From Octopus vulgaris (lineage: Eukaryota), in NCBI GenBank assembly GCA_951406725.2, contig OX597839.1, forward strand, positions 15,004,001-15,068,000: 64,000 nucleotides of DNA, written 5' to 3'. Of the stretch, positions 2,335-61,502 are shown in pieces; position 1 is the stretch's first letter, and the number at the start of each line of letters is the position of its first letter. The notes beneath the pieces were generated by a model. That model was not told where the DNA came from. It saw only the letters and a list, made by a program, of their open reading frames with translations, and did no database searches. The position numbers and the translations under genes were made by a program.

Positions 2335-2406
2335 ATTATTGAGCTATAATAATATCAAGGAAATCCAATCAGACGCCTTTCGAAATCTGTCCCGTTTAAC
2401 ATATAT
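2335..2406 (+). CDS. LRR exon E1 (class A): [23 protein letters not shown](I)
   Basis: ttccag|72 nt|gtaagt; open frame; LRR consensus. Confidence 0.9.

Positions 2407-61502: not shown

What the first reader, a model, noticed from the sequence alone, without database searches (positions are those of the whole stretch)
2335..61502. Splice junction cuts through the ligand-binding beta-strand, and variation concentrates there
Seen: the intron falls inside LxxL|xLxxN, so each concave-face strand is built from the last residues of one exon (TY, GY, TD, DT, KN, TN, TE, RF, TF, RA, TT, KI, EK, KY, IY) and the first residues of the next (L-SY, Y-EY, F-DY, F-SH, K-HK, E-YE, N-YE, K-YD, H-DE, N-RG, Y-NE, Y-SG, N-SF, Y-GG, Y-DN, Y-QN). 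The L and N scaffold positions are essentially fixed. Known: these x positions form the binding surface of LRR solenoids. Inference: skipping or shuffling an exon creates a new hybrid strand, which gives junctional diversity rather than only length change. Between E3 and E5 I count 10 nucleotide differences producing 7 amino-acid changes and only one purely synonymous codon change, which hints at diversifying selection.
Basis: partly seen in the sequence, partly recalled or inferred. Interest (0 to 1): 0.72.

Follow-up and report, generated by a model that had tools for sequence, protein, structure and literature searches.

The report
Octopus receptor's fast-evolving LRR binding face
These tiny exons each encode one repeat of the outer arm of an octopus adhesion receptor, and across gene copies the residues on the predicted binding strand change about twice as fast as silent sites, likely under selection; that the splice junction cuts this strand is a known layout of such genes, not the likely cause of the variation.

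Summary
Observation confirmed. The window holds 19 intact and 3 broken 72-nt phase-2 LRR exons. With 13 more upstream, they form the arm of an octopus LRR adhesion GPCR (GPS and 7TM lie downstream). The intron splits the codon of L4, the centre of the predicted beta-strand x3-L4-x5.

E3/E5 (9 replacement, 1 silent) is within chance (P 0.23-0.34), only 2 of 7 changes are on the strand, and M7/M8 on the 19 exons is not significant.

The conclusion survives with paralogues. On 118 exons with intron-based trees, omega is 2.2 on the strand, 0.8 at other exposed sites and 0.13 on the scaffold (p about 1e-6). Sites x3, x5, x7 and x8 carry it, and local silent rates are not raised.

The junction is not special. 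Brown-algal LRR exons cut elsewhere show the same four sites, and other LRR genes share this junction. Exons are gained and lost in the genome (12 to 55 intact per copy). RefSeq models of sister genes skip single repeats, but I have no splicing evidence for this gene, and an orthologue model includes exons in a row. The scan reported this family before on other DNA.

The parts
2335..2406 (+). LRR exon E1 (72 nt, phase 2-2)
3268..3339 (+). LRR exon E2
3597..3668 (+). LRR exon E3
4682..4753 (+). broken LRR exon copy E4 (open frame, no GT donor)
5654..5725 (+). LRR exon E5
8645..8716 (+). LRR exon; recent duplicate of 24832 (1 nt difference in the exon, 98% over 1.3 kb)
16349..16420 (+). LRR exon
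19075..19146 (+). broken LRR exon copy (no acceptor, in-frame stops)
19951..20022 (+). LRR exon
21380..21451 (+). LRR exon
24832..24903 (+). LRR exon; recent duplicate of 8645
28937..29008 (+). LRR exon; first of the 3' block that is collinear with paralogue B (and largely C, D)
30530..30601 (+). LRR exon
33096..33167 (+). LRR exon
46157..46228 (+). LRR exon
47814..47885 (+). LRR exon
48733..48805 (+). broken LRR exon copy (no GT donor, frameshift); the same copy lacks its donor in paralogues B, C and D
51373..51444 (+). LRR exon; counterpart absent from paralogues C and D
54399..54470 (+). LRR exon; the exon that precedes its counterpart in B, C, D is absent here
55455..55526 (+). LRR exon; in NCBI model P0002
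59712..59783 (+). LRR exon with scaffold F19 replaced by S; left out of NCBI model P0002
61431..61502 (+). last LRR exon (capping type); 41 matches in the genome
63033..63202 (+). LRR C-terminal cap exon (CxC...C...C), in frame with the last LRR exon; the GPS and 7TM exons follow outside the window, to window-relative 123845

Best explanation
The exons encode, one repeat each, the LRR arm of an octopus adhesion GPCR, likely spliced by default in a row into one long horseshoe, and the four residues of each repeat on the predicted binding strand (x3, x5, x7, x8) are likely under diversifying selection among recent gene copies. Shown: exon anatomy, the link to GPS and 7TM exons, repeat number differing between paralogues, and omega about 2 on the strand against 0.8 and 0.13 elsewhere. 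Inferred mechanism: unequal crossing-over copies and deletes exon-plus-intron units in the germ line. The symmetric phase and a split codon that is hydrophobic in every join (L in 456 of 496) let any gain, loss or skip fold. Point changes on the strand are then favoured because the receptor must bind a changing extracellular target, most likely (about even odds) non-self surface molecules met at gills, skin and suckers. Binding or pulling on the arm would signal through the GAIN/GPS tethered agonist (HL/TSFAVLM). The junction position is the usual one for this repeat class and permits shuffling; it is not what concentrates the variation.
For: Gene: tblastn maps P0002 (100% identical, named adhesion GPCR G6-like, Octopus vulgaris; Pfam LRR_8, GPS, 7tm_2) from exon 55455 to the 7TM. 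Copy number: 32 intact exons here; 55, 12, 12, 49, 45 in five paralogues. Selection by counting: 61 independent pairs picked on intron identity give strand pN 0.137 vs pS 0.078 (ratio 1.76, bootstrap 1.32-2.36), other exposed 0.81, scaffold 0.13; 14 pairs with a window exon give 2.4 (1.3-5.0). Selection by codon models on intron-derived trees (29 clusters, 118 exons): strand omega 2.19 (p 9e-7; 2.02 with F3X4), and silent rate is 0.8-0.9 of the intron rate. M7 vs M8 p 7e-7, M8a vs M8 p 4e-6, sites x3, x5, x7, x8. On 187 unique exons M8 p 8e-11. No local silent-rate rise: interleaved L1/L6/N9 codons 0.77x, and omega stays 2.07 (p 8e-4) when the whole strand region has its own silent rate. Structure: the model of P0049 puts the strand on x3-L4-x5 in every repeat, pLDDT about 85-98. 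In-row inclusion: P0049 follows the exon order of paralogue E for its last 12 repeats. Same sites in algae with a different junction.
Against: The window's 19 exons alone, and the gene's 32, give no significant omega above 1. If only the five strand codons get their own silent rate, omega falls to 1.5 and is not significant (p 0.11-0.23; 0.04-0.05 without the F-only clusters), although that extra rate is itself not supported (p 0.15). Between species there is no concentration: 11 exons of paralogue E vs O. bimaculoides P0049 differ at 9 of 55 strand and 20 of 121 other exposed residues, so selection looks episodic. Exon flanks are mosaic, which can inflate site tests. M8 on the exon tree also flags x2 and x16, and the 13-cluster set flags x10 and x15. 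No signal-peptide exon was found for this copy (an assembly gap lies 9 kb upstream). Ligand, tissue and transcript of this gene are untested.
Confidence: 0.7

Rival explanations
1. Junction-focused combinatorial receptor: cells splice different exon subsets, Dscam- or VLR-like, and new hybrid strands at the joints are the main source of specificity.
For: Any forward join is in frame and keeps a hydrophobic L4 (496 of 496). 168 distinct x3/x5/x7/x8 sets are possible against 31 in line. The two highest-omega sites, x3 and x5 (3.2 each), flank the cut. RefSeq isoforms of sister genes lack exactly one 24-aa repeat: 5 of 7 comparisons in one O. sinensis cluster (of the other two, one is N-terminally shorter and one is the O. 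vulgaris protein) and 3 of 3 in an O. bimaculoides gene, including non-duplicated repeats.
Against: The longest RefSeq isoform always carries all repeats, and P0049 includes consecutive exons, so there is no mutually exclusive pattern. Only x3 comes from the upstream exon, and it is unchanged in 6 of 30 single skips. Algal type I exons have the same selected sites mid-exon. Several skipped repeats sit in near-identical blocks, where read mis-mapping is possible. Frame-preserving skips can be tolerated noise (own knowledge).
Confidence: 0.12
2. Relaxed constraint plus gene conversion: exposed strand residues drift neutrally, and omega above 1 is an artefact of mosaic exons and short alignments.
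For: No signal in the 19 or 32 exons of this gene. Omega 1.5, not significant, with a strand-only silent rate. Mosaic flanks. No strand excess between species. Broken exons are common (26 flagged of 231).
Against: Among unchanged amino acids, silent differences are not raised on the strand (5/174 vs 12/181 in the interleaved scaffold codons). Silent rate matches the intron rate. Convex exposed sites, which should be equally relaxed, sit at omega 0.8. Counting and likelihood methods agree.
Confidence: 0.13
3. This copy is an incomplete or decaying gene; the selection signal belongs to the family's past and to its sisters.
For: No signal-peptide/LRRNT exon match on this contig among 48 matches. 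3 broken exons. Scaffold losses (F19 to S at 59712; L6 to G at -21707). The NCBI model uses only 2 LRR exons.
Against: 32 exons are intact with canonical splice sites, and scaffold omega is 0.13-0.15. All 18 downstream exon stretches are free of stops. An assembly gap lies just upstream in both this copy and paralogue B.
Confidence: 0.15
4. The arm is a neuronal or epithelial adhesion code (binding own proteins), diversified after duplication rather than by an arms race with non-self.
For: Ritschard 2019 reports group 3 expression in axial nerve cord, suckers and skin and proposes an adhesion role.
Against: Rapid repeat gain and loss, dead exons and recurrent replacement at the same four sites resemble candidate immune receptors of brown algae. 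The same paper reports gill expression in C. minor.
Confidence: 0.25

Closest known systems
Octopus-specific adhesion GPCR expansion, group 3 (Ritschard et al. 2019, PMC6408891; parts 1-4 of 6 read)
   Same: Octopus class B GPCR with GPS, adhesion 7TM and LRR (LRR in 5 of 22 sequences there); tandem clusters; branch-level positive selection
   Different: That paper found no selected sites and, in the parts I read, does not describe one-LRR-per-exon arrays of 12-55 repeats or strand-focused selection; placement in group 3 was not tested by a tree here
Brown-algal ROCO and LRR-kinase genes (Zambounis et al. 2012, PMC3341825, parts 2-5 of 7 read; Teng et al. 2024, PMC11378527, passages read)
   Same: One 72-nt exon per LRR, dead exons in introns, gain and loss, selection on the concave face. 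Type II exons (xLxxNxL...LxxL) have the same boundary as here, with selected sites 3 and 23 (x7, x3). Type I selected sites 15, 17, 19, 20 equal x3, x5, x7, x8 by my count
   Different: Cytoplasmic GTPases and kinases, not a GPCR. Algal ROCO loci have inverted exons; none was found here in six regions. Independent origin is inferred
Human NLR and typical-class LRR genes with modular exons (Hoss et al. 2019, PMC6642158; parts 1-2 of 8 read)
   Same: Frame-preserving LRR exons with the border always at one position within the beta-sheet; skipping changes the interaction surface (NLRP3 without exon 5)
   Different: 28-29-residue repeats in NLRs, a stable exon number, intracellular sensors
ADGRA2/ADGRA3 (GPR124/125) LRR adhesion GPCRs (recalled, no call)
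   Same: LRR arm plus cap ahead of GAIN/GPS and 7TM
   Different: Those have a few LRRs and an Ig domain. Here there are tens of LRRs, no Pfam Ig hit and a Cys-rich domain with a weak Ly6/uPAR lead
Arthropod Dscam1 and agnathan VLRs (recalled; mentioned)
   Same: Array of interchangeable units with a variable binding face; 24-residue LRR in VLRs
   Different: No evidence here of mutually exclusive splicing or somatic assembly; each unit is a normal spliceable exon and models include them in a row

Membership tests
Adhesion GPCR | GPS motif just before the 7TM | tested here: met
   PF01825 E 1e-13 in P0002, mapped to exon 104032-104184 window-relative, reading CSCDHLTSFAVLM
Adhesion GPCR | Secretin-type 7TM (PF00002) | tested here: met
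   E 3.6e-30 in P0002; exons mapped downstream on the same strand
Adhesion GPCR | Signal peptide / N-terminal exon in this copy | tested here: inconclusive
   Found in paralogues C, D, E; no match on this contig; assembly gap 9 kb upstream of the first LRR exon
Adhesion GPCR | Autoproteolysis and tethered-agonist signalling | not testable with these tools
   Motif present; needs biochemistry
Ritschard group 3 octopus expansion | Octopus-specific clade of adhesion GPCRs in the class B tree | not tested
   No tree built; all 61 hits at E<=1e-30 in the near-length search are Octopus proteins
Ritschard group 3 octopus expansion | Many paralogues in tandem clusters | tested here: met
   41, 48 and 54 genome matches to the last-LRR, N-terminal and GPS exons, mostly on C29-C31
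Exon-shuffling LRR receptors (brown-algal ROCO type; works-like) | One symmetric 72-nt exon per LRR | tested here: met
   32 of 32 intact exons in this gene; 205 in six genes
Exon-shuffling LRR receptors (brown-algal ROCO type; works-like) | Repeat number and order differ between recent paralogues; dead exons in introns | tested here: met
Exon-shuffling LRR receptors (brown-algal ROCO type; works-like) | Positive selection on concave-face positions | tested here: met
   Family-wide; not significant on this gene alone
Exon-shuffling LRR receptors (brown-algal ROCO type; works-like) | Roc-COR GTPase domain (family membership) | tested here: not met
   Pfam of P0002-P0004 shows LRR, GPS and 7tm_2, no Roc-COR
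Dscam-like combinatorial receptor | Mutually exclusive choice of one exon per cluster | tested here: inconclusive
   Sister-gene models include exons in a row and skip single ones; no transcript evidence for this gene
ADGRA (GPR124/125) | Ig domain after the LRR cap | tested here: not met
   No Ig hit in Pfam scans of P0002-P0004 at E 0.01

The most novel reading that the evidence does not exclude
Octopuses have a 40-50-gene GPCR family that works as a variable non-self receptor repertoire. Germ-line shuffling of one-repeat exons, selection on four strand residues and cell-to-cell exon skipping, which rebuilds the strand at each new joint, would give individual animals and cells different binding arms wired directly to G-protein signalling.
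Probability: 0.2. Interest if true: 0.85.

Novelty: new variant of a known kind. Interest (0 to 1): 0.45.

Why it matters
If the selection signal holds, an octopus-specific GPCR family carries the signature of arms-race receptors (one-repeat exons, rapid gain and loss, omega about 2 on four predicted binding residues) on an adhesion GPCR. It converges on brown-algal LRR genes down to the same four sites. It names testable candidates for variable recognition in cephalopods and shows that current annotation misses most of the arm (2 of 32 exons in the NCBI model). The junction-in-strand layout itself is published and ordinary for LRR genes.

Tried and rejected
1) E3/E5 as evidence: P 0.23-0.34. 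A first comparison with 469 nt of downstream intron looked significant (10/72 vs 22/469, p 0.005), but that tract is recently homogenised. The immediate flanks are as diverged as the exon, so I rejected it. 2) Site models on the window's 19 and the gene's 32 exons: not significant under F1X4 or F3X4; one M8 fit sat in a local optimum below M8a. 3) pN against intron p in pairs (2.9x) is biased upward, because pairs were picked on low intron distance and aligned locally; I rely on pN/pS and. 4) The NEB list was computed at the wrong scale (script bug) and the M7 fits hit the grid edge for the cluster sets; both were redone. 5) RNA: no RNA holder on record was listed. Contigs of four guessed-RNA runs laid on 16200-33300 were swamped by repeats; none of the 15 joints shown (235 not shown) was an exon-exon joint. 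6) Search for the N-terminal exon in 72 kb upstream: none. 7) A conserved intronic selector motif: only splice-proximal words shared by duplication. 8) ESM Atlas: a weak Ly6/uPAR-type lead (score 0.79) for the Cys-rich domain and no usable hit for the next domain. 9) Foldseek and phmmer returned generic LRR proteins (LGR4/5, IGFALS, LRRC15, TLRs), with no ligand clue. 10) The literature search on glycoprotein-hormone-receptor intron phase found 0 papers. No model of this gene's own joined solenoid was made; a relative (P0049) was folded instead.

Full report
1. What is in the window. An AG-72 nt-GT scan finds 19 intact LRR exons between 2335 and 61502. Profile searches add three broken copies: 4682 has no donor, 19075 has no acceptor and has stops, 48733 has no donor and a frameshift. 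There is no exon-like copy on the minus strand. The introns are phase 2 and split the codon of the second L of LxxLxLxxN. I number the repeat L1 x2 x3 L4 x5 L6 x7 x8 N9; each exon runs from x5 to the first two bases of the next L4.

2. What gene it is. The window is G000:C26:15004001-15068000 in a 2.8-Gb genome. Thirteen more intact exons lie up to 28 kb upstream. Downstream lie a cap exon (63033), a Cys-rich domain, GAIN/GPS exons and a secretin-type 7TM ending near window-relative 123845. All 18 downstream stretches checked are free of stops. P0002, named adhesion GPCR G6-like of Octopus vulgaris, matches at 100% but uses only 2 of the 32 LRR exons. The last-LRR, N-terminal and GPS exons have 41, 48 and 54 matches in the genome (lower bounds, not copy numbers). 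No N-terminal exon matches this contig, and an assembly gap lies 9 kb before the first LRR exon.

3. Paralogues. I fetched 5 of the roughly 40-50 loci: the three closest by last exon (B, C, D) and two long arrays (E, F). They hold 55, 12, 12, 49 and 45 intact exons; B and F adjoin gaps and may be incomplete. 26 copies flagged broken (some are 69-nt exons) were left out of all tests, leaving 205. This gene and B are collinear at about 87-95% from 28782 onward and scrambled before that. Single exons are missing in one copy and present in another, and 8645/24832 is a very recent duplicate. So gain and loss of exons in the genome is shown. Whether A-D are all paralogues or partly retained haplotypes was not settled.

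4. Does variation concentrate on the strand? In an AlphaFold2 model of the relative P0049 (22-row alignment; repeats at pLDDT about 85-98) the beta-strand of every repeat is x3-L4-x5, so the intron cuts the middle of the strand. That the strand lines the concave binding face is established knowledge of LRR proteins, not tested here. Entropy is highest at x7, x8, x3.

(b) On the 19 window exons, with my own codon-model code (M0 likelihoods equal IQ-TREE's), M7 vs M8 gives p 0.87-0.95 and strand omega 1.2-1.3. That is not above 1 but is above other exposed sites (p 0.03; p 0.001 for 32 exons).

(c) 61 independent pairs (122 of 205 exons, picked on intron identity from 574 alignable pairs) give pN/pS of 1.76 (1.32-2.36) on the strand, 0.81 at other exposed sites and 0.13 on the scaffold. 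The 14 pairs with a window exon give 2.4 (1.3-5.0); 5 pairs within this gene give 1.58 (Fisher p 0.2).

(d) With trees and branch lengths from introns only (29 clusters, 118 of 205 exons), omega is 2.19, 0.82 and 0.13, p 9e-7 against 1. Per site: x3 3.2, x5 3.2, x7 2.0, x8 2.0, x2 1.0, and x10, x12, x16 1.4. The silent rate is 0.82-0.89 of the intron rate. M8 beats M7 (p 7e-7) and M8a (p 4e-6), with x3, x5, x7, x8 at 1.0, 1.0, 0.98, 0.89 (NEB). The 187 unique exons on an exon tree agree and add x2 and x16.

(e) A local mutation or conversion hot spot is not supported: silent change is not raised in strand or interleaved codons, and omega stays 2.07 (p 8e-4) with a region-wide silent rate.

Against the reading: with a silent rate for the five strand codons alone omega is 1.5, not significant. 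Flanks are mosaic. Eleven exons of paralogue E compared with O. bimaculoides show no strand excess (9/55 vs 20/121). Branch lengths were fixed up to a scale, and NEB, not BEB, was used. I read this as real but episodic selection among young copies.

5. Is the junction the point? But only one selected residue comes from the upstream exon. Hoss 2019 reports that LRR exon borders sit at one fixed position in the beta-sheet in NLRs, with the exon-repeat relationship shared by typical-class LRR genes. Zambounis 2012 describes algal type II exons with exactly this boundary and selection at x7 and x3. It also describes type I exons, cut elsewhere, with selection at sites that I count as x3, x5, x7, x8. 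The same four sites are therefore selected whether or not an intron is near, so variation follows the strand.

6. Splicing. RefSeq isoforms of sister genes in O. sinensis and O. bimaculoides differ by one, two, four or six whole repeats, including unique ones. These are predicted models whose read support I could not see, and several skips lie in near-identical blocks. The longest isoform always has all repeats, and P0049 follows the exon order of paralogue E, which argues for in-row inclusion by default. For this gene no transcript evidence was obtained.

7. Mechanism and verdict. Most likely this is a cell-surface adhesion GPCR with an arm of about 32 repeats, remodelled in the germ line by copying and deleting exon units and tuned by selection at four strand residues, with skipping as a minor layer. 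The ligand is inferred to be variable and probably non-self (about even odds against an own adhesion partner). The family's expansion is published (Ritschard 2019) and the exon layout and selection pattern are published for algae and NLRs. The combination on a GPCR was not found in five octopus-directed searches (listings only, open-access library; Ritschard's supplements were not read and may bear on gene structures). This scan has noted the family at least 11 times on other DNA; those notes agree and were not used as support. New variant of a known kind; interest 0.45.

Noticed in passing
window 34301-39489 and 43761-45326: 5.2-kb and 1.6-kb TA microsatellite blocks inside one 13-kb intron; the matching interval in paralogue B is far shorter, so an expansion or an assembly artefact
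   Followed up: no
window 9711-10865 (+): Degenerate reverse-transcriptase frame in an intron (Pfam RVT_1, E 6e-7)
   Followed up: partly
window 39907-40776 (+): 290-aa open frame with a GIY-YIG-like C-terminus, probably a Penelope-type element (label recalled, not tested)
   Followed up: no
window 57021-57996: Nine copies of a 108-bp pyrimidine-rich tandem repeat in an intron
   Followed up: no
window 58925-59472: Three head-to-tail copies of a 182-bp element, likely an octopus SINE (label recalled)
   Followed up: no
window 3669-4190 vs 5726-6250: Intron tracts downstream of E3 and E5 are about 1% diverged in the middle but 18% next to the exon: a recent gene-conversion or crossover tract
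   Followed up: partly
window 61431-61450 vs L051 and L042 (paralogues D, C): The last LRR exon differs from its C/D counterparts by 7 nt, changing five of the first six residues, while flanks differ by 2-3%
   Followed up: no
window-relative 66861-76500 (L001-L002): After the LRR cap come a Cys-rich domain with a weak Ly6/uPAR three-finger lead and three exons, skipped by model P0002, for a predicted alpha/beta domain that may be SEA-like (label recalled)
   Followed up: partly
L081-L100 (paralogue F, C29): Blocks of four exons repeated nearly identically at about 10-kb spacing, each carrying the same donor-less exon; also 69-nt (23-residue) exons in E and F
   Followed up: no
C26 (this gene) and C10 (paralogue B): Both isolated copies begin just after an assembly gap and lack a family N-terminal exon nearby, while C29 holds many; possible misplacement of contigs
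   Followed up: partly
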